A DNA stretch of 64,000 nucleotides, from the NCBI GenBank assembly GCA_934119955.1, contig CAKOSZ010000001.1:46592-110591 (forward strand). The letters are read 5' to 3'. Below, piece by piece: positions 842 to 57,783 of this stretch (positions are counted from its first letter, which is position 1; each line of letters starts with the position of its first letter). The notes under the pieces are model-generated. The model saw only the letters and a list, made by a program, of their open reading frames with translations, searched no databases and was not told where the DNA came from. This DNA is from an uncultured Bacilli bacterium (GTDB lineage Bacteria > Bacillota_I > Bacilli_A > RF39 > UBA660). The translations under genes were made by a program, and so were the position numbers.

Positions 842-1819
842 ATGAGAAAAAAAATTGTTACAATACTTGCCTTTTTAATTATTTTTATGCTTGCATGTAG
901 TGTTCTTTTTAATGACAAAGATAAAAATAAAAACTTAGTTAAAGTTAAGGTTGCTGAAGTTGCTCATAGTATTTTTTATGCTCCTCAATATGTTGCAATT
1001 CACAATAATTATTTTAAAGAAGAAGGACTTGATGTTGAGTTAATACTTGCAGCAGGTGCTGATAAAGTTACAGCAGCCGTTTTATCAGGTGATGTTGATA
1101 TTGGTTTTTCAGGATCTGAGGCAACCATTTATGTTTATAATGGCGGAGAAAAAGATTACTTAAAAACATTCGCCCAGTTAACACAAAAAGATGGAAGTTT
1201 CATTGTTGCAAGAAAGAAAATTGATAATTTTTCTTTAAATGATTTAAAAGGAAAATACATAATTGGCGGAAGAATTGGTGGTATGCCAGAAATGACACTT
1301 GAATATATTTTAACTAAAAACAATATAGATCCTAGTAAAGATTTAACTATTGACACAAGTATTGCTTTTTCTGCTATGCAAGGAGCCTTTATTGGAGGAA
1401 CTGGGGACTTTGTTAGTTTATTTGAACCAAATGCAACCTTAACCGAAAAAGAAGGATATGGTTATATTGTTGCAAGTTTAGGTAGTCTTGGTGGTAATAT
1501 TCCTTATACTGCCTATAATGCTAGAATATCTTATCTAGAAAAAAATCCTAAAATAATTAAAAGTTTTACGAAAGCTATTCAAAGAGGACTTGATTATGTA
1601 AACAGTCATAAAAGTGAAGAAATTGCTAAAATAATTAAAGATGAATTTCCAGATATCAAATTAGAAGACTTAACAACTGTAATTAATCGTTATAAAGAAA
1701 ATGACACTTGGCCAAAAACAACTGAATTTACCGAAGAAAGTTTTAATCACTTACAAGATATTATGATAAATGCTAAACAATTAGATAAAAAAGTTAATTT
1801 TAAAGATTTAGTATATTAA
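842..1819 (+). CDS. ABC transporter substrate-binding lipoprotein (NMT1/SsuA/TauA-like, nitrate/sulfonate/bicarbonate family)
   Basis: Lipoprotein signal peptide with lipobox (FMLAC). Overall periplasmic-binding-protein-like composition resembling SsuA/NMT1 family. GGAGG RBS 6 nt upstream. Confidence 0.55.
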   Translation: MRKKIVTILAFLIIFMLACSVLFNDKDKNKNLVKVKVAEVAHSIFYAPQYVAIHNNYFKEEGLDVELILAAGADKVTAAVLSGDVDIGFSGSEATIYVYNGGEKDYLKTFAQLTQKDGSFIVARKKIDNFSLNDLKGKYIIGGRIGGMPEMTLEYILTKNNIDPSKDLTIDTSIAFSAMQGAFIGGTGDFVSLFEPNATLTEKEGYGYIVASLGSLGGNIPYTAYNARISYLEKNPKIIKSFTKAIQRGLDYVNSHKSEEIAKIIKDEFPDIKLEDLTTVINRYKENDTWPKTTEFTEESFNHLQDIMINAKQLDKKVNFKDLVY

Positions 1820-15840: not shown

Positions 15841-15923
15841 ATAACTATAATGATAGAATAAGGTTACTTAAAAAGAGATTATAATAATTTAATTCTAGTT
15901 AATAATAAAAAAGGAGGAAAATT

Positions 15924-15977
15924 ATGTTTGATTTAGTTAGTAAATATACTAAAATAAAACTAAAAAAAATGAAATAG
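15924..15977 (+). pseudogene. Duplicated uvrB 5' fragment (RBS plus first 9 codons MFDLVSKYT, then stop after 17 codons)
   Basis: About 44 nt (AAAGGAGGAAAATTATGTTTGATTTAGTTAGTAAATATAC) are identical to the real uvrB start at 17215-17258. Confidence 0.7.
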
Positions 15978-16046: not shown

Positions 16047-17072
16047 ATGAATAGTATAGAAGTTGGAAATGAAAAAAATATTTTATTTTATAGTGATGAA
16101 AATGGTCAAACTAAAATAGAAGTAGTTTTACAAGATGATGATGTTTGGTTAAATGTAAATGCCATAGCAAATCTTTTTAACGTACAAAGACCTGCTATTG
16201 TAAAACATATAAATAATATATATAGTGATGATGAATTAAAGAAAACAGCAACCTGTTCCATTTTGGAACAAGTTCAAGTAGAAGGAACACGAAATGTAAA
16301 AAGACAGAAAGAATATTATAATTTAGATATGATTATTTCTATTGGTTTTAGAGTTAATTCTAAGAAAGCGATTAAATTTAGAAGTTGGGCAAATGAAATA
16401 ATTAAAGATTATATGATTCAAGGTTTCGCACTTGATGATGATAGATTTATGAAAGCAAGAAAATCTGATCAAGAATATTTTAAAAGATTACTAGAAAGAA
16501 TAAAATTAATTCGTACTAGTGAGAGAATGTTTTACCAAAAAATTACAGATATATTTGCAGAATGTTCCATTGACTACGATAAAAATAGCAATATAGCAAA
16601 AGATTTTTATGCAACTGTTCAAAATAAATTTCATTATGCTATTACTGGAAATACCGCAGCAGAAATTATTTACAACAGAGTTGATAGTCAAAAGATGAAT
16701 ATGGGGCTAACTAATTGGAACAAATCTCCTGATGGAAAAATTTTAAAACCAGACGTTTTTGTTGCCAAAAATTATTTGGACGAAAAAGAAATAAAAAAAT
16801 TAAATAATTTGGTAAACTTATTTCTAGATATTGCAGAGAATAACGCCGAAAGAAATTTATCAATGAGTATGAGTGATTGGAAAAATGAAGTTGAAACATC
16901 CTTAAAATTATTTCATTATGATATATTAGAGGGTAAAGGAAAAATTTCTAATGAAACAGCAAAGCAAAAAGCAGAAAAGGAATATGAAAAATACAAAGTT
17001 ATACAAGATAAAAAATTTATTTCTGATTTTGATAAATTATTAATTGAAACAGAAAAAATAGAAAATCATTAA
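16047..17072 (+). CDS. RhuM family virulence protein (DinD-like)
   Basis: N-terminal ENGQTKIEVVLQDDDVWLNVNAIANLF...YYNLDMIISIGFRVNSKKAIKFRSWANEIIKDYMIQGFALDDDRF matches the RhuM family conserved core. Confidence 0.75.
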   Translation: MNSIEVGNEKNILFYSDENGQTKIEVVLQDDDVWLNVNAIANLFNVQRPAIVKHINNIYSDDELKKTATCSILEQVQVEGTRNVKRQKEYYNLDMIISIGFRVNSKKAIKFRSWANEIIKDYMIQGFALDDDRFMKARKSDQEYFKRLLERIKLIRTSERMFYQKITDIFAECSIDYDKNSNIAKDFYATVQNKFHYAITGNTAAEIIYNRVDSQKMNMGLTNWNKSPDGKILKPDVFVAKNYLDEKEIKKLNNLVNLFLDIAENNAERNLSMSMSDWKNEVETSLKLFHYDILEGKGKISNETAKQKAEKEYEKYKVIQDKKFISDFDKLLIETEKIENH

Positions 17073-17229
17073 AAATAATTACATCATTAAATTAATTATG
17101 TATATTAAAAAAAATATTAATTTAAACATAAAAATATAAAAAACATAAACAAATTTATAAATTAATAAATGATAATAATTATTATTCAAAAAGAGAAAAA
17201 GTTACAAAAAATTATAAAGGAGGAAAATT

Positions 17230-19182
17230 ATGTTTGATTTAGTTAGTAAATATACACCTAGTGGAGATCAACCAGAAGCAATTAAAGAATTAGTTGAAGG
17301 AATAAAAGATAATAAAAAACATCAAGTATTACTAGGAGCAACAGGAACTGGTAAAACTTTTACTATTGCTAATGTAATAAAGGAAGTAAATAAACCTACT
17401 TTGGTTCTAGCCCATAATAAAACTTTGGCAGGTCAACTTTATAGTGAATTAAAAGAATTATTTCCAAATAATCGAGTTTGTTATTTTGTTTCATACTATG
17501 ATTATTATCAACCAGAAGCCTACGTTCCATCAAGTGATACTTATATTGAAAAAGATGCTAAAATAAACGATGAAATAGATGAATTAAGACATTATGCAAC
17601 CAGTTCTCTTTTATCAAGAAGAGATGTAATTGTAGTTGCCAGTGTTTCTTGTATATATGGTATTGGAGAAGTTGAGGAATATAAAAATAAAACTTTAACT
17701 TTAAATGTTGGAGATAAAGTCGAAAGAAACGATATCATGGTAAAACTTATTGAAATGTTATACGAAAGATCAGAATTTGATTTTAAAAGAGGTACATTTA
17801 GAGTAAGAGGAGATACACTAGAAATAATTCCTGCTAATGAACATACTCATGGACTTAGAATTGAGTTTTTTGGAGATGAAATAGATAGAATAAGTGAAAT
17901 AGATACTTTAACTGGAAGTATTGTTACTAATAAAAAAAGTATTACTATCTTCCCTGCTAGTCACTTTGTAACAAATGACGAAAAGTTATTAAAAGCAATT
18001 AGTAATATTAAAGAAGAATTAAAAGAAAGACAAAAATATTTTTTAGATAATAATAAGCCTCTTGAAGAAGAAAGAATTAGAGAAAGAACTAATTATGATA
18101 TGGAACTACTTGCTGAAACTGGTTTTTGTCATGGAATAGAAAATTATTCAAGACATCTTGCTTTAAAAAAAGAAGGAGAAACACCTACTTGTTTGCTTGA
18201 TTTCTTTCCCAAAGATTATTTAATGGTAATAGACGAAAGTCATGTTACTATTCCTCAAATAAGAGGTATGTATAATGGAGATAGAGCAAGAAAAATGAAT
18301 TTAGTTGACTTTGGGTTTAGATTACCATCTGCACTTGATAATAGACCTTTAAAGTTTGAAGAATTTGAAGCAAAAGTAAATCAAGTAATATATGTATCAG
18401 CAACCCCAGGAGAATATGAACTTAATTTAACTAATAATAAATATGTTGAACAAATAATAAGACCAACTGGATTATTAGATCCAACCATTGAAATAAGGAA
18501 AACAAATGGGCAAATAGATGATTTAGTTGGAGAAGTAAATGATAGAATTAATAAAAATGAAAGAGTTTTAATTACTACTTTAACTATTAGAATGGCTGAG
18601 GAATTAACTAATTATTTAAAACAATTAGATATAAAAGTTGCTTATTTACATGCAGAGGTTAAAACTCTTGAAAGAATGAAAATTATAAGAGATTTAAGAC
18701 TTGGTAATTATGATGTTTTAGTTGGAATTAATCTTTTAAGAGAAGGACTTGATATACCAGAAGTATCTTTAATTGCTATTTTAGATGCTGATAAGGAAGG
18801 CTTTTTAAGAAGTAGCCGTAGTTTAATTCAAACGATTGGTAGATGTGCAAGAAATGAACATGGTCATGTAATTTTATATGCTGATAAGATGACTGATAGT
18901 ATGGAATATGCTATTAAAGAAACTAAACGAAGAAGAGATATTCAAGAAAAATATAATAAAGAACATGGTATTGTTCCAAAAACTATCGTAAAAGAAATAA
19001 GGGATTTAATATCTAATTTAGATGAAAATAATGATAAAAAGCCTACTAAATTAACTAAGAAAGAAAAACTTCAAACCATTGATAAAATAGAAGCCGAGAT
19101 GAAAGAGGCTGCTAAGGAACTTGATTTTGAAAGAGCAATGGAATTAAGAGATATTTTATTTGAAATGAAAGGTGAACTATGA
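17230..19182 (+). CDS. uvrB: Excinuclease ABC subunit B
   Basis: [10 protein letters not shown] Walker A, helicase motifs, and C-terminal UVR domain ([12 protein letters not shown]). 650 aa. Confidence 0.95.
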
Positions 19183-20055: not shown

Positions 20056-21027
20056 TTAATTATTTAATTCTTTCTTGATGTTTTCTAATTCTTTTTGATT
20101 AAGATTAGTAATTTCCATTATTTCTAAATCACTCATATTTTTATTTAATAAATTTTTAACTATAAGGGTTTGATTTTCTTTTTTTCCTTCTATTTTCCCT
20201 TCAATTATTCCTTCTATTTTTCCTTCAATTATTCCTTCCATTTTTCCTTCAATTATTCCTTCGTTTTTTCCTTCAAGTTTCCCATCAGTTAATCCAGCTA
20301 AATAGTTTTCCTCGGCTCTTAAATTTCTTTCCATATCCTCAGTCATGATTTCCTCCAAATATTTATTATCATTAGATAAATTATATAACTTTTTACTATA
20401 ATAATTTAACTCTTCATATTTAGAAAACTTTTTTAATTTATCTTCTGTATCAACAGTTAGTAATTTATATAATTTATCATAATTATCAAGATTATCATAA
20501 CCTAATTTTTCATAATAATCAAGATTAATGTTAATTATTTTAATAAGATAATCAACATTATATAGTTCTTTTAAGATATCATCCATTGGATAATCATATG
20601 TAATTATTTTTTTAGAAGGAACTTTTTTACTAAGATTTTTAGTTTTATACCAATTAAGATTAACTAGTATTACTTTATAAAAATTTCCTTTATCATAGTA
20701 ATTATCTTTATCAAAATTATAATAATTAGATAAAGTATTCAAGGCATATAAAACATTTCTTAGATAAAAACCTTGATAATTATTATTAAGTTCTATTATT
20801 ATTTTTTGATTTTTATAAACAACTACTAAATCAACATATTTTACTCTTTCATTTTCATTAATTCTTGGTAGTCTAATATTTAAAACACTGACTTTTCCTT
20901 TAATCTCTTTTACATCACATTCAAGTATTTGAGATGAGGCCCATTCTAGTAAACTCATATCATTTTCATTAAATAAATCGTGAAATAACTTATCATATCT
21001 TACTTGTAAAATTTTCTTATTCTTCAT
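20056..21027 (-). CDS. Rpn family recombination-promoting nuclease / PD-(D/E)XK nuclease-family putative transposase (copy 1, with internal GIIEGKxE repeat expansion)
   Basis: N-terminal LFHDLF...ERVKYVDLVV...NQKIIIELNNNY pattern and C-terminal LEGKxEG repeats typical of Rpn/YhgA-like proteins. The first 251 aa are identical to the ORF at 56896. Confidence 0.6.
   Translation of the reverse strand: MKNKKILQVRYDKLFHDLFNENDMSLLEWASSQILECDVKEIKGKVSVLNIRLPRINENERVKYVDLVVVYKNQKIIIELNNNYQGFYLRNVLYALNTLSNYYNFDKDNYYDKGNFYKVILVNLNWYKTKNLSKKVPSKKIITYDYPMDDILKELYNVDYLIKIININLDYYEKLGYDNLDNYDKLYKLLTVDTEDKLKKFSKYEELNYYSKKLYNLSNDNKYLEEIMTEDMERNLRAEENYLAGLTDGKLEGKNEGIIEGKMEGIIEGKIEGIIEGKIEGKKENQTLIVKNLLNKNMSDLEIMEITNLNQKELENIKKELNN
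20197..20292. repeat. Four tandem copies of a 24-bp coding repeat (GIIEGK[MI]E) inside Rpn copy 1
   Basis: TTTTCCTTCAATTATTCCTTC[CT]AT repeated head-to-tail. Absent from copy 2. Confidence 0.7.
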
Positions 21028-26711: not shown

Positions 26712-27938
26712 TTACTTATGTATAATAACATAATATTTCTTTTTACCTTTTCTAATAATAGTAAATTTATTATCAATAGCATTTTCACGTTTTACAACAA
26801 ATTCTAAATCATTTACTTTATCCCCATTAATAGAAATTGAATTATTTGTTATAAATTCTCTGGCTTCTCTTTTACTAGATGTTATGTTAGCATCTACTAA
26901 TAAATCTACTAAGTTAGTATCATTATCTATTTCATAACTATCCATTGATTTAGAAGCATCTAAAAGTTCATCATGAGATAATTCTTTAATGTTTCCTTTA
27001 AATAAAGCATCACTTATATGAACTGCTTTTAAGTATTCATCATGCCCATGTAAAAAGGTAATAATTTCTTCGGCTAGTTTTTTATGAGCAAGTCTTAAAT
27101 GAGGTTCATTTTTATTAACTTCTTCGTATTTTTCAATTTCTTCTTTGGTTAAGAAAGTATAAATTTTTAAATAATCAATTACCATACTATCTTCAACATT
27201 TACTAAGAATTGATATAATTCATATGATGAAGTTTTATTTTTATCAAGCCATAAAGCATTTCCTTCACTTTTACCAAATTTAACTCCTCTACTATCAGTT
27301 ACAAGTGGCATAGTAAAAGCATAGACAGTATCACCAGTTGCTTTTTTAATTAAATCAACTCCGGCTGTAATATTTCCCCATTGATCAGATCCTGCTACTT
27401 GTAAATCAACTCCATAATTTTCATGTAAATATTTAAAATCAAGTGCTTGTAAAATCATATAAGAAAATTCTGTAAAAGAAATTCCACTTTCAAGTCTTCT
27501 TCTAATAGTATCTTTATCTAGCATGTAGTTAATTGTAAAATATTTACCATAATCTCTTAAAAAATCAATCATATTAATATCTTTATACCAATCAAGATTA
27601 TTAACTACTTTAAAGCCAAAAATATCTTCAACTTGTTTTCTTAATCCCAAATAATTTTTTTCAATTACTTCTCTTGGAGTTCTATCTCTTTCACAAGTTG
27701 CCTTTGGATCACCGATTAAACCAGTTCCTCCTCCTACTAATAAAATAGGATTATGACCAGCATCTTTAAGTCGTTTAGTAATTAAAAAACTAGATAAATG
27801 ACCAATATGCATACTATCAGCAGTTGGATCAGTTCCAATATAAAATGTTAAACCTCCCTTATTAAGTTTTTCTTCAAGTTCAGGACTAGTAATATCTTTA
27901 ATAAGTCCTCTCCATTTTAATTCTTCAAATAAAGTCAT
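26712..27938 (-). CDS. tyrS: Tyrosine--tRNA ligase
   Basis: HIGH motif (SMHIGHL), KMSKS-type KFGKS, and C-terminal S4-like domain. Confidence 0.95.
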   Translation of the reverse strand: MTLFEELKWRGLIKDITSPELEEKLNKGGLTFYIGTDPTADSMHIGHLSSFLITKRLKDAGHNPILLVGGGTGLIGDPKATCERDRTPREVIEKNYLGLRKQVEDIFGFKVVNNLDWYKDINMIDFLRDYGKYFTINYMLDKDTIRRRLESGISFTEFSYMILQALDFKYLHENYGVDLQVAGSDQWGNITAGVDLIKKATGDTVYAFTMPLVTDSRGVKFGKSEGNALWLDKNKTSSYELYQFLVNVEDSMVIDYLKIYTFLTKEEIEKYEEVNKNEPHLRLAHKKLAEEIITFLHGHDEYLKAVHISDALFKGNIKELSHDELLDASKSMDSYEIDNDTNLVDLLVDANITSSKREAREFITNNSISINGDKVNDLEFVVKRENAIDNKFTIIRKGKKKYYVIIHK

Positions 27939-28195
27939 TTTTTCCTCCTATAAAAAAACATTACAAACTAAGGACGAAATAACCGTGGTACCACCTTATT
28001 TTGTAATGAATTACACTTATTACGATAACGCGTTTAGCGATTTAACTCCATTTAGGTAATTTCCATATTAAACCGATTAGTTTCCACCACCCACTAACTC
28101 TCTAAACCAAATTTAATACTTAAAACTAAATTTCTTTGTTAAATATGACTATATAATAACATATTTATTTAAAATTGCAAATAGTTTTTTTAATA
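27939..28195 (-). promoter_or_regulatory. T-box riboswitch leader of tyrS
   Basis: Minus-strand RNA contains AGAGAGUUAGUGGGUGGUGGAAAC stem I start, T-box sequence AAGGUGGUACCACGG (plus-strand aaccgtggtaccacctt at 27981-27997), and a U-run before the AGGAGG RBS. Confidence 0.75.
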
Positions 28196-28233: not shown

Positions 28234-29937
28234 TTATTCTGCACTTATAATATAAGGATCATTTATACTTCCTGTTCCAGATATAATATTCGTTTGGGAT
28301 CCAAGACTTAAGACTGGACGAAGAGCGTCATAGCTATCAGGATCCGGCCAGCCTAAGTCAATGCCGTAGCGCCAGTCAGCCGCCCCCACGGAAAGCCCAG
28401 CAATAGGAGAAAGAAGCCAGAAAGCTGCTTGATCATTTAGCATCCAATTATTATAATTTTTATTTGCATAAACTGCTAAAACTTGATCCCCCCAACCACT
28501 TGGAATTCTTGCATATCCTAAATCACTTGGATATAATAAAGCAATTTTTCCATTCCATGTTGCTTGATTATTTTCTATTATATTACTCTCATCTCTTTCC
28601 ATTGCATATATTTCTTTTAATGTTCCATCATCTAATCCACCTAAATAATATTTCATATTCTCAATTAAATTACTATTTTCTAAACTATTTAAATAATTTT
28701 CATTTAAGTAATACATACTTACTGCTTTTGTCCAATCGTTATAATTCGTTTCTACACTTGATGGGTTATTCCAATAAAAATATTTATATTTTGTTCCTGT
28801 AACTTCTGTATTAAATACTTGATAAGTAATATTATCTTTTGTAATAGTCGCTGGCACTTCTGTACTTAAACTAATTGGTTCATCTTTTACTAGTTTTATT
28901 CTTTCAGCCTTTTCCCCATTTGCATTTTCTTCATTAAATATCCCCACTATTCTCCAAGTCTCATTATTAAATGTTACATAATTTCTTATTCCACTATCTG
29001 TTGGTATTGTTTGATTATTCTTTATACTTATAGTTGTTCCTCCAATATCAGTGCATGTCTTACCCATTATGTCAAACAAATCATTGTCTTCTGTTACAAC
29101 AAATTCTACATCACCTGATACATAACATGCTGTTTGAGGACAAGTATTACCTGAAACAGATATATTATAATCATTTGTTCCATCTGTATATGTACAATAA
29201 TTTCCTATTCCAGAATAACGATATTCTCTTATTGTTCCACCTGTTGTTGCTAGATCACCATCTGTGTTAACAGCCACAAGTCCATCTTGATTAGCACCAT
29301 TATATCTATTTTTTACTGTTTCAACAAAATTTGTTGGTGCTTCATATTTTCCATTTACATTTACTTTTATACTTGCAAATAAGTTTGACCAATCAGTTAA
29401 ATTATAGTCACAATTATCTGTTATATCTCCACTACATATATTAACACTTTCATCTATCCACATATATAATCTATATATTTTTGTTATTTTACTTGTTGTG
29501 TTTGCAGGTATTGTACTACTATATATTGTTGTATTATTAATATTTTCTATTGTTAATTTATCTTGTAAAATATTTTCTTGATTATTGTTAACTTCAACTA
29601 AACTAAATTTCAAGAATTTGTCTTCTATTCTTGTTTTATTTGCTTCTGTATCTCCATGAACTAATTCGATATTATAATTTACTCCATATTTTGTATGAGT
29701 ATTTTTTCCATCTATAGTAAATTCAAAATATTTAGTAGGATCATAAGTGCTACTTGGCATAGCACCTTCTATTTTAAATTCATTTGTTTCATTATAATGC
29801 ATATAGATGTCCCCTACTACAAGACTTGAATTATTAATACTTACCTTATTATAAGTAAAAAATGCAAATGATACTCCTATTGTTAATACTAAGATTGCTA
29901 TTACACTTAATACTATTATTAATTTTTTATTTTTCAT
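28234..29937 (-). CDS. Large secreted/surface-anchored protein (paralog A), N-terminal signal-anchor, Cys-containing extracellular region
   Basis: MKNKKLIIVLSVIAILVLTIGVSFAFF signal/TM. C-terminus ...RPVLSLGSQTNIISGTGSINDPYIIS shares a module with the 47683 gene. Confidence 0.5.
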   Translation of the reverse strand: MKNKKLIIVLSVIAILVLTIGVSFAFFTYNKVSINNSSLVVGDIYMHYNETNEFKIEGAMPSSTYDPTKYFEFTIDGKNTHTKYGVNYNIELVHGDTEANKTRIEDKFLKFSLVEVNNNQENILQDKLTIENINNTTIYSSTIPANTTSKITKIYRLYMWIDESVNICSGDITDNCDYNLTDWSNLFASIKVNVNGKYEAPTNFVETVKNRYNGANQDGLVAVNTDGDLATTGGTIREYRYSGIGNYCTYTDGTNDYNISVSGNTCPQTACYVSGDVEFVVTEDNDLFDIMGKTCTDIGGTTISIKNNQTIPTDSGIRNYVTFNNETWRIVGIFNEENANGEKAERIKLVKDEPISLSTEVPATITKDNITYQVFNTEVTGTKYKYFYWNNPSSVETNYNDWTKAVSMYYLNENYLNSLENSNLIENMKYYLGGLDDGTLKEIYAMERDESNIIENNQATWNGKIALLYPSDLGYARIPSGWGDQVLAVYANKNYNNWMLNDQAAFWLLSPIAGLSVGAADWRYGIDLGWPDPDSYDALRPVLSLGSQTNIISGTGSINDPYIISAE

Positions 29938-30162
29938 ACTTAACTCCTTTTCTTGAATAATTGCCCCTCTATTCTAATATAATTTTATTTTAACGTAGTT
30001 TTTATTTATTATAAAGTATTTTTATGTCTAAAAAAATCGTATTATGTGGACTATAAAAAAACATGATTAAGTTTACAGTTTATCTGTAATTTTTAGTAAT
30101 GTTTTTAAGTATCAATTATATATAATAATTCTTTACAAACTCTTTTACTTAGTTGGTTTTTC

Positions 30163-30246
30163 TTAGATATTTCTACCCCCCCCCCATGTAAAGTTTTGTA
30201 AAGTTAGAGTTTGATTAGTTGTAAAGCAATTATTTGGTTTATTCAT
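30163..30246 (-). CDS. Mini-ORF (27 codons, MNKPNNCFTTNQTLTLQNFTWGGGRNI) containing a G10 homopolymer; upstream ORF/leader peptide of surface locus A
   Basis: AAGGAG RBS 8 nt before the ATG. Conserved with the mini-ORF at 49740-49817. The G-run encodes the GGG tail. Confidence 0.4.
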   Translation of the reverse strand: MNKPNNCFTTNQTLTLQNFTWGGGRNI

Positions 30247-30272
30247 GAAAATCAACTCCTTATCATGTAAAA

Positions 30273-30301
30273 ATCATATCATGTTTTTATATATTTTTCA
30301 A
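30273..30301 (-). promoter_or_regulatory. Sigma-A-type promoter TTGAAA-17-TATGAT driving the mini-ORF/surface locus A
   Basis: Read on the minus strand: TTGAAA (30301-30296), 17-nt spacer, TATGAT (30278-30273). Confidence 0.55.
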
Positions 30302-47682: not shown

Positions 47683-49539
47683 TTATTTAAGAGCAATAGT
47701 AAATGGATTACTTTTAGTTCCATCTCCACCTGTTATAACGATATTTGATTTTAGATATATTGATGGACGAGCAGCAATAGTAGTGGAAAGTTTGATGAAG
47801 CTAACATCACCGGTTTTTTCAGTGTAATAAACACGAGAAGAGCTAGAAGGTGTTATTAACCACATACTACTTGAACCAGAATAACCACCTCCTTGTTGAC
47901 TGGCAAACATTTCTCCGTATCTTGGTAGCCCTACATAACCAGTATTCCAAATACTTGTTGTTTTAACACAATCTTTTGTTATTTCAGTGGTATTATTTGT
48001 ATTACATAAAGAATTTTTATAACTTGTACCTCTAGATATTTCTTTTATATAATATGTTCCTTTGTCTAACATATTTTTTTGTGCTAAACTATTATACCAA
48101 GTATTATTTAAATAATAATCCCAGTAATCATCACTATCTCCATTTCCATATGGTGTACTTGTACTAAACTTTTTAGTTAAAGTAGTTGTACCATTTTTTA
48201 TATAATCATTTTTATTTAATTTAACTTTCTCGTCTTCAATACTTACTATTCTATACAATTCTTTGGTTGTATTATTACCATCTTCGTCAAATATTACATA
48301 CTCACCTATTGTTCTTGTATTTAATAAAGTTGTATTTGCTGTTGCCGGTTCCTTATCTCCTAAAATTGTATATGGATCATCTTTGGTTCCCGAACCACCT
48401 AAAAGTTGGATATTTGATTTTAGATTTATTGACGGGCGAACACCATAGGTACTGGAAGGACTGCCGACGCCGTTGCTATCATTACCGCTGTTAGTAACAG
48501 CCCAAACATAAGAAGAGCTACAAGGATTTAATAACCACCAATCATAGCCTATATTTAAATAACCACCTGGGTATCCTATGTTTCCTATGTTTTTATAACT
48601 TAAATAATATTCATGCCTATTTAATAGCCCTACTGATGTATTCTTACCAATTGTAGAATTGTTTATTAAAGGTGTTATATTCCATGTACTATCTTCAACT
48701 ATTATATTTTGATAATTATATAAAGTATCTAAAAAGTCTTCATTTAACCATTGATACATGTATGATCCAGTATATGTTGTATCATCTTTTTTAGATATAT
48801 CATAAAAATTTACATCACTTCCGTAAGAAATAGTTGTAATTACATCATCTGTTATCATTTTCATAGTTCCATCAGAATTAATGGCTGTTATTCGCCAAAG
48901 TTTGCCACTATACCAAACATAATTAAAGTTTATACAAGTACTTGTTCCTGATATATAAGTTATACCATCTTCTTCTACTTTGGTTTTACATGAACCTGTT
49001 GGATTATTAACACTTGTTGCAATTGCATCTTTAACTGGTACTCCTAAGGTTTCATTTAGTTTTAATTCTATTCCTTGTTCAAGGGGAATTGGATAACCTG
49101 TTAAGCCTCCTTGGGTACCTAGTTTAATTGTTATGTCATTTTCTCCTATGTTTGTAAATGTAAAACTAAATGATTTAGATGAAGTCATATCACCTTCAAC
49201 TATATTATTTGTAAATGTTTCTGTTGATGTTACATTGAATAAAGATATACCTGACACTACTTCATAGTACATTTTATATGCTATTTGATTTGTTAATTCT
49301 GTTGTTAAATTAACAGTTAAAGTAATACTGCTTCCTTTTGGAATTGTAAAAGTATTATTCTCTTGATTTACTACTGTTGTTGTTATATTAATGGATGCTG
49401 TTTTTAAAACTATAACACTATTTTTTATAACTGATACTTCATAATATGCATACGATGAATACATTCCTATTGATAATACACACATTAATACTAAAAATAC
49501 TATAATTTTTTTATTTAAATTAATTTCTTTATCTAACAT
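47683..49539 (-). CDS. Large secreted/surface-anchored protein (paralog B) with two C-terminal repeat modules
   Basis: Signal-anchor. Modules ...RPSINLKSNIQLLGGSGTKDDPYTI and ...RPSIYLKSNIVITGGDGTKSNPFTI, related to the C-terminus of the 28234 gene. Confidence 0.5.
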   Translation of the reverse strand: MLDKEINLNKKIIVFLVLMCVLSIGMYSSYAYYEVSVIKNSVIVLKTASINITTTVVNQENNTFTIPKGSSITLTVNLTTELTNQIAYKMYYEVVSGISLFNVTSTETFTNNIVEGDMTSSKSFSFTFTNIGENDITIKLGTQGGLTGYPIPLEQGIELKLNETLGVPVKDAIATSVNNPTGSCKTKVEEDGITYISGTSTCINFNYVWYSGKLWRITAINSDGTMKMITDDVITTISYGSDVNFYDISKKDDTTYTGSYMYQWLNEDFLDTLYNYQNIIVEDSTWNITPLINNSTIGKNTSVGLLNRHEYYLSYKNIGNIGYPGGYLNIGYDWWLLNPCSSSYVWAVTNSGNDSNGVGSPSSTYGVRPSINLKSNIQLLGGSGTKDDPYTILGDKEPATANTTLLNTRTIGEYVIFDEDGNNTTKELYRIVSIEDEKVKLNKNDYIKNGTTTLTKKFSTSTPYGNGDSDDYWDYYLNNTWYNSLAQKNMLDKGTYYIKEISRGTSYKNSLCNTNNTTEITKDCVKTTSIWNTGYVGLPRYGEMFASQQGGGYSGSSSMWLITPSSSSRVYYTEKTGDVSFIKLSTTIAARPSIYLKSNIVITGGDGTKSNPFTIALK

Positions 49540-49739
49540 ATAAACTCCTTTTTGCCTCAGTATTCCAATACAATTTTATTTTAACATATATTTTATTTTT
49601 ATTAAACAAGTTAATTAGATTTTAAAATCATATTATATGGACATGTAAAAAACATGATTAAAAATCACAGATTGACTGTAAACTTAATCATGTTTTAATT
49701 TTAATTATTTTATTACAAAGCTTCTTGTTTAATAAGGGA

Positions 49740-49817
49740 TTATATCCCCCCCCCCCATGTAAAGTTTTGTAAAGTTAGAGTTTGATTAGTTGTAAAGTAA
49801 TTATTTAGTTTATTCAT
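49740..49817 (-). CDS. Mini-ORF (25 codons, MNKLNNYFTTNQTLTLQNFTWGGGI) containing a G11 homopolymer; upstream ORF of surface locus B
   Basis: AAGGAG RBS. Paralog of the 30163-30246 mini-ORF. Confidence 0.4.
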   Translation of the reverse strand: MNKLNNYFTTNQTLTLQNFTWGGGI

Positions 49818-49843
49818 TAAAACCAACTCCTTATCATATGAAA

Positions 49844-49872
49844 ATGATATCATGTTTTTACTTGTTTTTCAA
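49844..49872 (-). promoter_or_regulatory. Sigma-A-type promoter TTGAAA-17-TATCAT for the mini-ORF/surface locus B
   Basis: Minus strand: TTGAAA (49872-49867), 17-nt spacer, TATCAT (49849-49844). Confidence 0.5.
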
Positions 49873-54984: not shown

Positions 54985-56364
54985 TTAGTATTCACAGTTA
55001 CCAGGAGTTCTTGGATAAGGAATTACATCACGAATATTTTCAACACCAGTTAGATATATTAATAATCTTTCAAATCCCATTCCAAAACCTGAATGAGGAC
55101 AACCTCCAAATTTTCTTAAATTTAAATACCATTCCATTGATGAAGCATCCATTTTTAATTCTTCCATACGTCTAACTAATTTATCATAGTCTTCTTCTCT
55201 TTGAGAACCACCCATTAATTCTCCTGCACCTGGTACTTCTAAATCAACCGCTGCAACAGTTTCTTGATCAGGATTTAATTTCATATAAAAGGCTTTAATA
55301 TCTTTTGGCCAATCAGTTATAAATACAGGTCCATTAAAGTATTCTGTTATATATTTTTCATGTTCCTTGGCAATATCCTCACCATATTCTGGTTTAAATT
55401 CCCAATCTACCTTGGCCTCTTTTAAAATAGAAATTACATCATGATGAGTTATTCTTGTAAAGTGACTAGTTAATAGTTTATTTAATTTTTCAAGTAAACC
55501 TTTTTCAACAAAACTATCAAAGAAATTCATTTCGTCTTTACAATTATCAAGGACATATTTAACAACATATTTAAGCATATCTTCCATGATATCCATATCA
55601 CCTGCAAGATCACAAAAAGCAATTTCAGGTTCAATCATCCAAAATTCACTTGCATGAGTTTTGGTATTAGAATTCTCTGCTCTAAATGTTGGACCAAAAG
55701 TATAAACTTTTTTGTAAGCAAGAGCAAATGTTTCAGCTTCAAGTTGACCTGATACGGTAAGAGCTGTTGTTTTACCAAAGAAATCTTTTGAATAATCAAC
55801 AGTTCCTGATTTAGCAACTCTATTTAAATCAAGAGTTGTAACTTGAAACATTTGACCTGCACCTTCACAATCACTTGCTGTAATTAATGGAGCATGAAAA
55901 TATACATATCCTTTTTCTTGAAAATATTTATGAATTGCATAAGCAGCCACACTTCTAACACGAAAAACTGCATTAAACAAATTAGTTCTAGGTCTTAAAT
56001 AGGCTTGCTCTCTTAAAAATTCTCTTGTATGTCTTTTAGGTTGAATTGGATATTCATCAGGACACTCACCAATTACTTTAATATTATTAACTTTAATTTC
56101 AAAGTCTTGTCCACTTCCTTGGGATTTAATAACCACTCCTTCAACTTCTAAACTAGATCCAACTTTTATCTTAGTAATATCTTCAAAATCACTTAAATTA
56201 TTATCATAAACAAGTTGAATAGTTTTAAAACAAGTTCCATCACTAAAATCAATAAAACCAAATTCTTTTTGTTTACGATGATTTCTAACCCAACCATCTA
56301 TTACTACTTTCTCTCCCATATACTTTTCTAAATCCATTACGATATCTTTTACATCTATTTTCAT
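54985..56364 (-). CDS. asnS: Asparagine--tRNA ligase
   Basis: N-terminal OB-fold (VVIDGWVRNHRKQK), class II motifs (FRAE, GGSQRE, GFGMGFERL). Confidence 0.95.
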   Translation of the reverse strand: MKIDVKDIVMDLEKYMGEKVVIDGWVRNHRKQKEFGFIDFSDGTCFKTIQLVYDNNLSDFEDITKIKVGSSLEVEGVVIKSQGSGQDFEIKVNNIKVIGECPDEYPIQPKRHTREFLREQAYLRPRTNLFNAVFRVRSVAAYAIHKYFQEKGYVYFHAPLITASDCEGAGQMFQVTTLDLNRVAKSGTVDYSKDFFGKTTALTVSGQLEAETFALAYKKVYTFGPTFRAENSNTKTHASEFWMIEPEIAFCDLAGDMDIMEDMLKYVVKYVLDNCKDEMNFFDSFVEKGLLEKLNKLLTSHFTRITHHDVISILKEAKVDWEFKPEYGEDIAKEHEKYITEYFNGPVFITDWPKDIKAFYMKLNPDQETVAAVDLEVPGAGELMGGSQREEDYDKLVRRMEELKMDASSMEWYLNLRKFGGCPHSGFGMGFERLLIYLTGVENIRDVIPYPRTPGNCEY

Positions 56365-56615
56365 ATATCCTCCTTTAAAATAAAAGCACTGATTAAAAGA
56401 GGCGACTAATCACGGTACCACTCTTCTTATCAGTGCTTGATATCTCTTCTTGATAACGGTTATAAACCGATATTTTCTACTAAATTCAAAAATATACTCC
56501 ACAGTGTTATTCTTATATTCTTCCTGTTAATTTTCACCAACCATTAACTCTCTAAATGTAACTAAATATAATACTTCTCTGTATCATCGCTTTGATTAGT
56601 TATATTATATAACCT
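56365..56615 (-). promoter_or_regulatory. T-box riboswitch leader of asnS
   Basis: Minus-strand RNA has AGAGAGUUAAUGGUUGGUGAAAA stem I start, T-box AGAGUGGUACCGUGAUUAG, and terminator inverted repeat AAGCACUGAU...AUCAGUGCUUUU followed by a U-run. Confidence 0.7.
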
Positions 56616-56692: not shown

Positions 56693-57783
56693 TAATTAAC
56701 TTTTTTTAAAAATGTGAACAAGTTTCACATTTTAGTTTTCTCAAACCCTTATAGAATAAGACTTTTAAAAAATAAAAAAATTTTTTTCTAACATTTACTA
56801 ATCTTTTATATTATATTTGGGAGGTAAATATGAGAAAAAATTATAAAACTTAAATATTTTTATTATTAAAATTACTTATTAGAAAGGAGCAAAAAATGAA
56901 GAATAAGAAAATTTTACAAGTAAGATATGATAAGTTATTTCACGATTTATTTAATGAAAATGATATGAGTTTACTAGAATGGGCCTCATCTCAAATACTT
57001 GAATGTGATGTAAAAGAGATTAAAGGAAAAGTCAGTGTTTTAAATATTAGACTACCAAGAATTAATGAAAATGAAAGAGTAAAATATGTTGATTTAGTAG
57101 TTGTTTATAAAAATCAAAAAATAATAATAGAACTTAATAATAATTATCAAGGTTTTTATCTAAGAAATGTTTTATATGCCTTGAATACTTTATCTAATTA
57201 TTATAATTTTGATAAAGATAATTACTATGATAAAGGAAATTTTTATAAAGTAATACTAGTTAATCTTAATTGGTATAAAACTAAAAATCTTAGTAAAAAA
57301 GTTCCTTCTAAAAAAATAATTACATATGATTATCCAATGGATGATATCTTAAAAGAACTATATAATGTTGATTATCTTATTAAAATAATTAACATTAATC
57401 TTGATTATTATGAAAAATTAGGTTATGATAATCTTGATAATTATGATAAATTATATAAATTACTAACTGTTGATACAGAAGATAAATTAAAAAAGTTTTC
57501 TAAATATGAAGAGTTAAATTATTATAGTAAAAAGTTATATAATTTATCTAATGATAATAAATATTTGGAGGAAATCATGACTGAGGATATGGAAAGAAAT
57601 TTAAGAGCCGAGGAAAACTATTTGGCCGGATTAACTGATGGGAAACTTGAAGGAAAAAATGAAACTCAAACTCTTATTGTTAAAAATTTATTAAAAAATT
57701 CTATTCCTGATGATATTATTATAAACTCAACTAATATATCTTATGAAAAATTAGAAAATATCAAGAAAGAATTAAATAATTAG
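56693..57783. repeat. Right arm of ~1.15 kb inverted repeat (partner at 20056..21232)
   Basis: Reverse complement of the left arm, including the leader with palindrome AATGTGAACAAGTTTCACATT and the 7-codon mini uORF. Confidence 0.8.
56896..57783 (+). CDS. Rpn family recombination-promoting nuclease / PD-(D/E)XK nuclease-family putative transposase (copy 2, no repeat expansion)
   Basis: Residues 1-251 are identical to the 20056-21027 product. C-terminus ...ETQTLIVKNLLKNSIPDDIIINSTNISYEKLENIKKELNN. Confidence 0.6.
   Translation: MKNKKILQVRYDKLFHDLFNENDMSLLEWASSQILECDVKEIKGKVSVLNIRLPRINENERVKYVDLVVVYKNQKIIIELNNNYQGFYLRNVLYALNTLSNYYNFDKDNYYDKGNFYKVILVNLNWYKTKNLSKKVPSKKIITYDYPMDDILKELYNVDYLIKIININLDYYEKLGYDNLDNYDKLYKLLTVDTEDKLKKFSKYEELNYYSKKLYNLSNDNKYLEEIMTEDMERNLRAEENYLAGLTDGKLEGKNETQTLIVKNLLKNSIPDDIIINSTNISYEKLENIKKELNN

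What the first reader, a model, noticed from the sequence alone, without database searches (positions are those of the whole stretch)
29938..30301. Conserved promoter + RBS-equipped mini-ORF + poly-G(10) tract upstream of surface-protein paralog A: candidate phase-variation switch
About 230 nt upstream of the 567-aa secreted protein gene (minus strand) lies a ~140-bp element. It contains a near-consensus sigma-A promoter (TTGAAA-17-TATGAT), then AAGGAG-8nt-ATG, then a 27-codon ORF (MNKPNNCFTTNQTLTLQNFTWGGGRNI). The ORF's 3' end is a run of 10 G (10 C on the plus strand). A 10-nt G/C homopolymer is highly improbable by chance in a genome this AT-rich. Such runs are the classic substrate for slipped-strand mispairing. 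Changing the run length shifts the mini-ORF stop: 11 G gives WGGG-stop, 10 G gives WGGGRNI-stop, and 9 G reads on for more than 30 codons. It could also alter transcription or leader structure of the downstream surface-protein gene.
Basis: partly seen in the sequence, partly recalled or inferred. Interest (0 to 1): 0.8.

Follow-up and report, generated by a model that had tools for sequence, protein, structure and literature searches.

The report
Poly-G leader-peptide switch before surface-protein genes
A run of 9-11 G inside a tiny upstream reading frame, followed by a transcription terminator, most likely works as a random on/off switch for a large family of surface-protein genes in uncultured gut bacteria, using a mechanism so far proven only for Streptococcus gallolyticus pili.

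Summary
On the minus strand there is a TG-extended sigma-A-type promoter, an SD, a 27-codon ORF and a G10 tract (30176-30185). A second copy with G11 (49746-49756) precedes a distant paralog. G/C runs of 8 or more are expected 0.01 times in this 23% GC window.

I collected 36 copies from gut and rumen Bacilli/Erysipelotrichaceae assemblies. In 32 of the 33 with enough downstream sequence, exactly one of the three frames after the tract stays open to the hairpin. The other two frames stop 43 nt or more before the hairpin's inner stem. A diverged relative (G8) keeps this geometry. Tracts are G9, G10, G11 or interrupted, and they differ between orthologous loci. Only 5 of 33 copies are assembled in the long frame.

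This matches the proven S. gallolyticus pil1/pil3 switch (Danne 2014), where a repeat-driven frameshift lets the ribosome reach and disrupt a terminator. Here the repeat is a homopolymer, and one MAG carries 16 such loci.

Caveats:
- No read-level or RNA data were available.
- Both window copies also carry a conserved promoter-like P2 after the terminator.
- The copy A hairpin is weak.

Verdict: a new variant of a known kind.

The parts
30273..30301 (-). Copy A promoter P1: -35 TTGAAA (30296-30301), 17-nt spacer, TG-extended -10 TATGAT (30273-30278)
   Evidence: 10 of 12 matches, TG present. An ACTTGAAAAA...TGnTAnnAT promoter is found upstream of most copies.
30163..30261 (-). Copy A leader: SD AAGGAG (30256-30261), ATG (30244-30246), 27-codon ORF ending at TAA 30163-30165
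   Evidence: All 32 leaders with enough upstream sequence have an SD, an in-frame start and an open frame, with only codon-sized indels.
30176..30185 (-). Copy A G10 tract (C10 on the + strand). As assembled this is the short-frame, predicted OFF state; G9 or G12 would give the long frame.
30105..30107 (-). Copy A: TAA stop of the long (G9/G12) frame. It overlaps the start of the terminator's 5' arm (pairing begins at 30106).
   Evidence: stop ends 15 nt before the inner stem TTACAG
30055..30106 (-). Copy A terminator-like hairpin plus T7 run (T-run 30055-30061). It is flipped relative to the canonical hairpin of the other copies and weakened by arm mismatches.
   Evidence: -7.9 kcal/mol, z = -1.9; the plus-strand reading equals the canonical sequence
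29987..30015 (-). Copy A promoter-like P2 in the long-form spacer (TTTATA-17-TAAAAT). This is the only long-form copy that lacks the conserved TG.
28234..29937 (-). Regulated gene A: 567-aa secreted/surface protein with an N-terminal hydrophobic anchor or signal, beta-sandwich domains and a DUF6273-like C-terminus
49844..49872 (-). Copy B promoter P1: TTGAAA-17-TATCAT with TG
49740..49832 (-). Copy B leader: SD AAGGAG (49827-49832), ATG (49815-49817), ORF MNKLNNYFTTNQTLTLQNFTWGGGI*
49746..49756 (-). Copy B G11 tract. As assembled this is the short frame; G10 or G13 gives the long frame, which ends at TGA 49688-49690 inside the hairpin's 5' arm.
49647..49697 (-). Copy B intrinsic terminator: 14-bp outer stem plus 6-bp inner stem, followed by a T6 run (49647-49652)
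   Evidence: 13-nt perfect arms; -19 kcal/mol, z = -4.9, 0 of 200 shuffles as stable
49578..49605 (-). Copy B promoter-like P2 (TTAATA-16-TAAAAT with TG)
47683..49539 (-). Regulated gene B: 618-aa secreted protein with a DUF6273 domain

Best explanation
Each copy is a phase-variable transcription attenuator.
1. Promoter P1 transcribes a short leader ORF that contains the G-tract.
2. An intrinsic terminator lies between this ORF and the surface-protein gene.
3. Slipped-strand mispairing during replication changes the tract by one G, which changes the leader's reading frame.
4. In two frames the ribosome stops 3-30 nt after the tract. The terminator hairpin then forms and most P1 transcripts end there (OFF or low).
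5. In the third frame the ribosome translates on and stops at or inside the hairpin's 5' arm, or further into the hairpin. Its footprint blocks hairpin formation and RNA polymerase reads into the gene (ON or high).

Window copy A (G10) and copy B (G11) are both one G too long for the ON frame (G9 and G10 respectively).

Shown here: the anatomy, its conservation across 36 copies and in one diverged relative, and tract differences between paralogs and between orthologous loci.

Inferred: high-frequency slippage, translation of the leader, terminator function, and ribosome-mediated antitermination. The last rests on analogy with S. gallolyticus pil1/pil3.
For: (1) Two tracts of 8 or more G in a 23% GC window, against 0.01 expected.

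(2) 36 canonical copies in two GTDB MAGs and other gut and rumen assemblies. All are in the same orientation, and nearly all lie upstream of genes of one secreted-protein family.

(3) In 32 of 33 copies with enough downstream sequence, exactly one frame reaches the terminator. Its stop ends 15-6 nt before the inner stem, or 17-23 nt past its start. Every other frame stops 43 nt or more before it. The rule holds across 6 sequence classes of the intervening region. The chance that a shuffled region has any open frame is 0.09-0.38 per class, with a product of about 5e-5. It also holds where indels move the ON frame to another G count (window B, L021, L055).

(4) A 43%-identity homologue (L053/L054) has a diverged leader but keeps SD, 36-codon ORF, G8, a hairpin of -25.9 kcal/mol and a T-run. 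As assembled it stops 5 nt after the tract; the other frames stop at the base of the hairpin or read through it.

(5) Hairpin: -19 kcal/mol and z = -4.9 in copy B. 97.8% of cells pair across 25 copies, against about 40% in the slid controls. Changes are mostly wobble-compatible, with one compensatory pair.

(6) In at least 10 short-form copies the big gene's RBS follows the T-run within about 25 nt, so the gene can only be reached by read-through.

(7) SD, start codon and frame are conserved in all 32 leaders, but variability is flat across codon positions (36/43/32). This fits a regulatory ORF rather than a functional peptide.

(8) Tracts: G10 x21, G9 x5, G11 x5, interrupted or corrupted x5. 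Only 5 of 33 copies are assembled in the long frame, which fits a mostly-OFF multigene family. Orthologous loci differ in the tract: L013 G9 versus L034 G4AG5, with 5 differences in 420 flanking nt; and L051 G4AG5 versus L056 G11.

(9) Experimental precedent with the same geometry: S. gallolyticus pil1/pil3 (PMC3894217).
Against: - No read-level evidence of length heterogeneity. The tool collapsed the other 11-12 contigs carrying identical window proteins, so no strain-level comparison of the window loci was possible.
- The tract distribution is strongly centred on G10. That could reflect a fairly stable tract.
- All 17 long-form copies, including both window copies, carry a conserved promoter-like P2 between terminator and gene. 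16 of 17 keep a TG upstream of TAAAAT, TATAAT or TACAAT, and L053 has TTGCAA-17-TATAAT at the same position. The gene may therefore be transcribed independently of the switch.
- Copy A's hairpin is weak (-7.9 kcal/mol, z = -1.9).
- The terminator scan did not flag either hairpin because the stems are AT-rich.
- Covariation in the hairpin is not significant: 195 of 500 shuffles do as well.
- A stop-avoidance test within the largest class lacked power (0 of 23 substitutions stop-creating, P = 0.24).
- From my own knowledge, not checked here: transcription-translation coupling is reported to be loose in some Firmicutes.
Confidence: 0.65

Rival explanations
1. The unit P1-SD-ORF-terminator is a stand-alone small gene. 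Its real product is the 40-57-aa long-frame peptide, which is itself phase-variable through the G-tract. The terminator simply ends this small gene, and the surface-protein gene is transcribed from its own promoter P2.
For: A stop codon just before a terminator is normal gene anatomy. P2 is conserved in the long-form copies and in the diverged relative. The long-frame peptides share a loose motif (P-L-x-N-K-E-F-C/V) across classes.
Against: At least 10 short-form copies have no room for P2, so the big gene needs read-through. The long frame ends at variable points, before, in or beyond the hairpin's 5' arm, and peptide length ranges from 40 to 57 aa. The 5' part of the ORF shows no codon-position signature of protein-level selection. 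The leader is nearly always linked to one gene family in cis.
Confidence: 0.14
2. The G-tract is a conserved but essentially stable feature of a repeated leader, for example a WGGG coding or structural element. The 9/10/11 differences would be ordinary mutations or homopolymer assembly errors, so there is no high-frequency switching.
For: 21 of 36 copies are G10. All data are consensus assemblies, some at 2-4x coverage (L034, L037). No read data were available.
Against: The tract is the most length-variable site in otherwise conserved leaders. The three-frame geometry would have no reason to be kept across sequence classes and in L053 if length never changed. From general knowledge, G tracts of 9 or more are established slippage substrates in many bacteria.
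Confidence: 0.1
3. The G-tract acts at the RNA level, not through the reading frame. It could be a length-dependent target of a C/U-rich small RNA (like RepG-tlpB in Helicobacter pylori), or it could change leader structure or stability.
For: The tract sits in the loop of a conserved stem (CUUUACAAA/UUUGUAAAG) and can pair with a nearby CCC(U). A precedent for G-repeat targeting exists (PMC8295292, abstract only, seen).
Against: No candidate sRNA was found and Rfam finds nothing at the leader. This reading does not explain the conserved SD and start, the codon-sized indels, or the one-frame-to-terminator rule.
Confidence: 0.05
4. The element is an invertible-DNA switch. Inverted repeats AAAAACATGAT ... 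ATCATGTTTTT, about 200 bp apart, would flank the -10 box, the mini-ORF and the G-tract and be flipped by a recombinase.
For: The inverted repeat is present in both window copies (16 nt at 94% and 11 nt at 100%). Copy A's hairpin is flipped relative to all the others.
Against: The upstream arm exists only in one of several 5' region types. The downstream arm is simply the terminator's 3' arm. All 36 copies have promoter, ORF and tract in the same orientation relative to the gene. The only flip seen is of the near-palindromic hairpin itself.
Confidence: 0.03

Closest known systems
Streptococcus gallolyticus pil1/pil3 phase-variable leader-peptide attenuator (Danne et al. 2014, PLoS Pathog, PMC3894217)
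   Same: The order of parts is the same: promoter, RBS, leader ORF containing a simple sequence repeat, stem-loop terminator with T-run, then surface-structure genes. The short frame stops tens of nt before the hairpin (39-49 nt in pil1; here 43 nt or more before the inner stem). The frameshifted frame stops about 4 nt before or inside the hairpin (here about 3 nt before, inside, or through it). In both systems most cells or copies are in the low state.
   Different: - The repeat is a G9-11 homopolymer, not GCAGA x13-26.
- There is no sequence homology.
- In the canonical copies only 1 of 3 frames is ON, against 2 of 3 in pil1. L053 does have 2 of 3.
- One MAG carries 16 independent loci, rather than two operons.
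- The genes are single secreted-protein genes, not sortase pilus operons.
- Many copies have an extra promoter-like P2 after the terminator.
- The hosts are uncultured gut and rumen Bacilli/Erysipelotrichaceae.
- Nothing has been tested experimentally here.
E. coli pyrBI leader
   Same: The leader ORF runs up to or through an intrinsic terminator, and a closely following ribosome prevents hairpin formation.
   Different: pyrBI is controlled by UTP-sensitive RNA polymerase pausing, not by a heritable frameshift. It has no repeat tract.
Classical homopolymer contingency loci (Neisseria, Campylobacter, Haemophilus; poly-G in the ORF or in the promoter spacer)
   Same: A poly-G tract as slippage substrate, stochastic ON/OFF switching of surface components, and several independent loci per genome.
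   Different: The tract is neither in the regulated gene's ORF nor between -35 and -10. It lies in a separate upstream ORF and would act through transcription termination.
Clostridioides difficile cwpV switch
   Same: Phase variation of a surface protein through formation or loss of an intrinsic terminator in the leader between promoter and ORF.
   Different: cwpV uses site-specific DNA inversion by a recombinase. Here the switch is a homopolymer frameshift sensed by the ribosome.

Membership tests
SSR-in-leader-peptide transcription attenuator (S. gallolyticus pil1/pil3 type) | [quoted passage not shown] | tested here: met
   SD plus an in-frame start in 32 of 32 leaders with upstream sequence.
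SSR-in-leader-peptide transcription attenuator (S. gallolyticus pil1/pil3 type) | A simple sequence repeat inside the leader ORF whose unit length is not a multiple of 3 | tested here: met
   G9-G11 tract within the ORF in both window copies and in 31 of 36 copies; the other 5 are interrupted or corrupted. The repeat is a mononucleotide, not GCAGA.
SSR-in-leader-peptide transcription attenuator (S. gallolyticus pil1/pil3 type) | A stem-loop intrinsic terminator with a T-run between the leader ORF and the structural gene | tested here: met
   Copy B: -19 kcal/mol, z = -4.9. Copy A is weak (-7.9 kcal/mol). Terminator function was not tested.
SSR-in-leader-peptide transcription attenuator (S. gallolyticus pil1/pil3 type) | Frame-dependent stop position: the short frame ends well upstream of the hairpin, and the shifted frame ends next to or inside it | tested here: met
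   32 of 33 copies. Also true of the diverged L053.
SSR-in-leader-peptide transcription attenuator (S. gallolyticus pil1/pil3 type) | Repeat number varies between isolates or cells | tested here: inconclusive
   Tracts vary between paralogs (9/10/11) and at orthologous loci: L013 vs L034, L051 vs L056, and probably L021 vs L046. These are consensus assemblies only, with no read-level or clonal data.
SSR-in-leader-peptide transcription attenuator (S. gallolyticus pil1/pil3 type) | A single transcription start upstream of the leader, so that the structural genes depend on read-through | tested here: inconclusive
   Short-form copies have no room for another promoter. Long-form copies, including both window copies, have a conserved promoter-like P2.
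SSR-in-leader-peptide transcription attenuator (S. gallolyticus pil1/pil3 type) | Translation-dependent increase in downstream transcription (ATG*, 3-STOP and delta-terminator mutants) | not testable with these tools
   Needs reporter constructs or RNA analysis.
SSR-in-leader-peptide transcription attenuator (S. gallolyticus pil1/pil3 type) | Sequence homology to the pil1 leader (GCAGA repeats) | tested here: not met
   No GCAGA repeats are visible in any leader read. The leader sequence is unrelated, so this is an analogue and not a homologue.
Classical intragenic or promoter-spacer homopolymer contingency locus | The tract lies within the regulated gene's own ORF, or between its -35 and -10 boxes | tested here: not met
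   The tract is 239 nt (A) and 207 nt (B) upstream of the big-gene ATG and downstream of the P1 -10 box, inside a separate ORF.
Invertible promoter/leader switch (fimS, C. difficile Cdi type) | Both orientations of the IR-flanked segment are seen among copies or assemblies | tested here: not met
   All 36 copies have the same orientation. Only the hairpin in copy A is flipped. I did not search for a nearby recombinase.
Known cis-regulatory RNA families (Rfam) | A match to a curated covariance model at the gathering threshold | tested here: not met
   the whole window gives only one T-box (56395-56596) and three tRNAs.

The most novel reading that the evidence does not exclude
These uncultured gut and rumen Bacilli run a genome-wide 'phasome' of independent poly-G leader-attenuator cassettes (16 loci in one MAG). 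The cassettes would give combinatorial, mostly-OFF expression of a hypervariable family of TasA-like or adhesin-like surface proteins. That would be a Firmicute commensal counterpart of the Neisseria opa or Mycoplasma variable-lipoprotein systems. The conserved extra parts (the invariant CTTTACA x3 motif, the P2 promoter with its TAGAGGGGCAA leader, and the flippable palindromic terminator) would add a second layer of control. One example would be a trans-acting leader RNA, peptide or binding protein that coordinates which paralog is expressed.
Probability: 0.15. Interest if true: 0.8.

Novelty: new variant of a known kind. Interest (0 to 1): 0.6.

Why it matters
The repeat-in-leader-peptide attenuator has been shown experimentally only for two pilus operons of S. 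gallolyticus. In the papers I could search, everything citing that mechanism stays within that species.

The same logic appears here, built from unrelated sequence and using a homopolymer. It is multiplied across 16 loci in one MAG, in an uncultured gut and rumen lineage. That suggests this is a general and portable way for Gram-positive commensals to vary their surface stochastically.

It also gives a simple sequence rule for finding such switches in metagenomes: SD-ORF, tract, one frame open to a terminator. And it predicts ON/OFF states that can be read directly from sequencing reads in host-associated samples.

It also shows that intergenic homopolymers should not be scored only as promoter-spacer variants in phasome surveys.

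Tried and rejected
- **Invertible-DNA idea.** It was prompted by the AAAAACATGAT/ATCATGTTTTT inverted repeat. I rejected it because the upstream arm belongs to only one 5' region type and all copies share one orientation.
- **Rfam.** The whole window at the gathering threshold gave nothing at the leader.
- **Terminator consensus scan.** It did not flag the hairpins because the stems are AT-rich. I used folding instead. In that call my third sequence (L002 coordinates) was mis-specified and should be ignored.
- **Hairpin covariation.** Pairing is very high, but covariation is not significant because the copies are too similar.
- **Stop-avoidance test in the largest class.** Underpowered: 0 of 23 substitutions create a stop, P = 0.24.
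- **Codon-position test.** No evidence of a protein-level constraint on the leader.
- **Full-leader folding.** No convincing alternative antiterminator; z = -0.9 and -2.1.
- **Strain-level polymorphism at the window loci.** The look-ups found 12-13 contigs with identical proteins but showed only one, which is identical to the window.
- **NCBIfam** gave no family for either large protein.
- **AFDB fold library** was unavailable.
- **Chance hits.** L003, L012 and L023 from the genome scan, and 10 of the 19 metagenome hits, were chance matches and were discarded.
- **Literature.** Searches for a homopolymer or uORF version of the switch found none.

Full report
**1. Observation**

- Promoter: TTGAAA (30296-30301), a 17-nt spacer, then a TG-extended TATGAT (30273-30278).
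- SD AAGGAG (30256-30261), 9 nt, then ATG (30244-30246).
- A 27-codon ORF, MNKPNNCFTTNQTLTLQNFTWGGGRNI*, ending at 30163.
- A G10 tract at 30176-30185.

The window is about 23% GC. Runs of 8 or more G/C occur at only two loci, against 0.01 expected.

The second locus (G11, 49746-49756) is a paralogous copy of the same element, upstream of a 618-aa gene. The two elements are about 93% identical from -35 to the tract. The two downstream proteins share only about 25-30% identity over parts of their length.

The SD-ATG spacer is 9 nt. The 9-G frame adds 23 codons (46 aa in total), not more than 30.

**2. What else is in the element**

Between the mini-ORF and the big gene, both copies carry a long AT-rich hairpin flanked by an A-run and a T-run.
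- Copy B: 49647-49697, -19 kcal/mol, z = -4.9, with 0 of 200 shuffles as stable.
- Copy A: 30055-30106, -7.9 kcal/mol, z = -1.9.

Rfam finds nothing at the leader.

**3. A multi-copy family**

A scan of one genome per species with a 20-mer ending in the tract found 22 genuine copies in two MAGs.
- 16 loci in an uncultured 'Bacilli' MAG from Hadza gut (CAKPFH01).
- 6 loci in an uncultured Erysipelotrichaceae MAG from rumen (CADBSI01).

To avoid ascertainment through the tract, I scanned metagenome contigs with a pattern taken from the hairpin. Every genuine hit that included upstream sequence had the leader ORF and a G-rich tract.

Look-ups of homologues of the 567-aa protein added more copies. 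That protein has 790 hits with E <= 1e-5, almost all unnamed MAG proteins.

The window itself is identical to part of a 316-kb Hadza gut contig.

**4. The key regularity**

I collected 36 canonical copies, of which 33 have enough downstream sequence.
- In 32 of the 33, exactly one of the three frames after the tract stays open to the hairpin.
- In that frame the stop ends 15-6 nt before the inner stem TTACAG, that is, about 3 nt before or inside the 5' arm. In four copies it ends 17-23 nt past the start of the inner stem.
- All other frames stop 3-30 nt after the tract, which is 43-83 nt before the inner stem.
- The exception is L037, a 1.8x-coverage contig with a stop inside a corrupted tract.

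The intervening region falls into six sequence classes. The chance that a dinucleotide shuffle has any open frame is 0.09-0.38 per class. The product is about 5e-5, a lower bound because the classes are related.

Where indels or substitutions next to the tract change the phase (window B, L021, L055), the ON frame moves to a different G count, but the rule holds.

A 43%-identity homologue in an NCBI 'Bacilli bacterium' MAG (L053/L054) has a diverged leader: a 36-codon ORF with a G8 tract. The logic is the same.
- As assembled, it stops 5 nt after the tract.
- G7 or G10 stops at the base of a -25.9 kcal/mol hairpin with a T-run.
- G6 or G9 reads through the hairpin.

**5. Is the mini-ORF a protein or a device?**

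All 32 leaders with upstream sequence have an SD and an in-frame start. They differ only by codon-sized indels.

Variability is flat across codon positions (36/43/32 minor alleles). What is conserved is the open frame plus a nucleotide motif, CTTTACA, present three times. The amino-acid sequence is not. This fits a regulatory leader ORF.

**6. Tract states**

- Lengths: G10 x21, G9 x5, G11 x5, interrupted or corrupted x5.
- Only 5 of 33 copies are assembled in the long frame (L004, L013, L038b, L043, L046). L020 (G9, cut off by a contig end) is probably a sixth.
- Window A (G10) and window B (G11) are both in a short frame, one G away from the long frame.

Orthologous loci differ in the tract.
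- L013 (G9) versus L034 (GGGGAGGGGG), with 5 differences in 420 flanking nt.
- L051 (GGGGAGGGGG) versus L056 (G11), both directly downstream of the same M23-peptidase gene.
- L021 (G7TG4) versus L046 (TG5TG4), which share leader and spacer sequence and are probably orthologous.

These are consensus assemblies, so they show divergence at the tract, not switching rates.

**7. Mechanism and precedent**

The anatomy matches the S. gallolyticus pil1/pil3 switch (PMC3894217).
- There, GCAGA repeats in a leader-peptide ORF change the frame.
- The short peptide stops 39-49 nt before a stem-loop terminator (low expression).
- Frameshifted peptides stop 4 nt before or within the hairpin (high expression).
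- The mechanism was demonstrated with ATG, three-stop and terminator mutants.

I therefore propose the same translation-mediated antitermination here, driven by a poly-G homopolymer. The steps are inferred from geometry and analogy and were not tested.

Short-form copies support the dependence on read-through. The big gene's RBS lies within about 25 nt of the T-run in at least 10 copies.

**8. Caveats**

- The 17 long-form copies, including both window copies, have a spacer of about 110 nt with a conserved extended -10-like promoter, P2. 16 of 17 keep the TG while neighbouring bases vary, and copy A is the exception. L053 has TTGCAA-17-TATAAT at the equivalent place. The gene may therefore also be transcribed independently, and the switch may only modulate the P1-derived transcripts.
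- Copy A's hairpin is flipped relative to about 30 other copies and weakened.
- Hairpin covariation is not significant, and a stop-avoidance test lacked power.
- No read-level data were available.

**9. Rivals**

- A stand-alone phase-variable small-protein gene with its own terminator (0.14).
- A stable tract with no real switching (0.10).
- RNA-level action of the G-tract, for example as an sRNA target (0.05).
- DNA inversion between the AAAAACATGAT repeats (0.03). This is contradicted by the uniform orientation of all copies, and the upstream repeat is absent from most 5' region types.

**10. What is regulated**

Both window genes encode proteins with an N-terminal hydrophobic anchor or signal and DUF6273-type C-terminal domains.

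An AlphaFold model of the 567-aa protein has mean pLDDT 80. Its best matches in the PDB are surface or fibre proteins:
- Thomasclavelia ramosa IgA peptidase (E = 3e-4).
- TasA fibre (probability 0.99).
- An archaeal bundling pilus.

The 'surface-protein' label is therefore reasonable.

**11. Novelty**

The mechanism is a known kind, but it has been documented only in S. gallolyticus. In the papers I could search, all papers citing it concern that species, and no homopolymer or uORF version turned up.

This case differs in four ways. It is a non-homologous, homopolymer-driven version. It is multiplied across 16 loci in one MAG. It sits in an uncultured gut and rumen lineage. Many copies carry an additional promoter.

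I rate it a new variant of a known kind, interest 0.6.

Noticed in passing
window 30055-30106 (copy A hairpin): The near-palindromic terminator hairpin of copy A is inverted relative to about 30 other copies: its plus-strand reading equals the canonical element-strand sequence. It also has two arm mismatches (-7.9 vs -19 kcal/mol). Possibly a flip by recombination or template switching between the 13-nt inverted arms.
   Followed up: partly
window 30187-30193, 30197-30203, 30223-30229 (minus strand); same positions in copy B: CTTTACA occurs three times in the leader ORF and is invariant at all codon positions in 29 unique leaders, while neighbouring codons vary. TTTACAG is also the inner 5' arm of the terminator, and TGTAAAG lies after the tract in most classes. 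This is nucleotide-level conservation with no known role.
   Followed up: partly
window 29987-30015 and 49578-49605; spacers of 17 long-form copies: A conserved promoter-like P2 (TRTGnTAAAAT/TATAAT) and a conserved TAGAATAGAGGGGCAA motif lie between the terminator and the big gene. 16 of 17 copies keep the TG, and window copy A does not. Short-form copies lack this whole ~110-nt segment.
   Followed up: partly
L007, L010, L011, L020 (CAKPFH01 contigs): Four contigs of the Hadza MAG end within about 40 nt of the G-tract. This could reflect assembly breaks at a repeat shared by 16 loci, or tract-length heterogeneity. I could not tell which.
   Followed up: no
L034, L051 (GGGGAGGGGG); L021 (G7TG4); L046 (TG5TG4); L017, L025 (G10AGG): Interrupted tracts recur. 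They would be much less mutable and may be 'locked' alleles: L034 and L051 in the short frame, L046 in the long frame. 23 contigs carry the exact downstream protein of L051, but only one locus was shown, so the tract state in the others is unknown.
   Followed up: partly
L042 (leader at about 1081-1250, minus strand) and L052: In L042 a complete leader plus long-form spacer precedes an unrelated-looking gene (MNKQFKDSINQSYEEAIKAMEEGQ...). Conversely, L052 is a 56%-identity family member in a prophage-like context (Bro-N, HTH genes) and has no leader at all.
   Followed up: no
window 28234-29937 (567-aa protein model): The N-terminal beta-sandwich resembles TasA fibre and archaeal bundling-pilus subunits. 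A larger part resembles the Thomasclavelia ramosa IgA peptidase. The N-terminus (…LTIGVSFAFFTYNK…) looks like a SipW/TasA-type signal peptide (my impression, from memory), but NCBIfam gave no match.
   Followed up: partly
window 56395-56596 (-) and 28056-28118: A T-box leader (118 bits) precedes the 459-aa gene at 54985-56364. A 63-nt stretch 71% identical to part of it lies upstream of the tyrS-like gene (26712-27938). This may be a second T-box scoring below Rfam's threshold.
   Followed up: no
window 20056-21027 (-) and 56896-57783 (+); 20176-20307: Two ORFs on opposite strands share an identical N-terminus (MKNKKILQVRYDKLFHDLFNENDMSLLEWASSQILECDVKEIKGK), so this is a repeated, possibly mobile gene. 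The first also contains eight overlapping register copies of a 12-nt tandem repeat.
   Followed up: no
window 15901-15949 and 17207-17255: A 49-nt direct repeat (94% identical) covers an RBS and the first codons of the 650-aa ORF at 17230-19182 (MFDLVSKYT...). It flanks the 341-aa ORF at 16047-17072, which suggests an insertion that duplicated the gene start.
   Followed up: no
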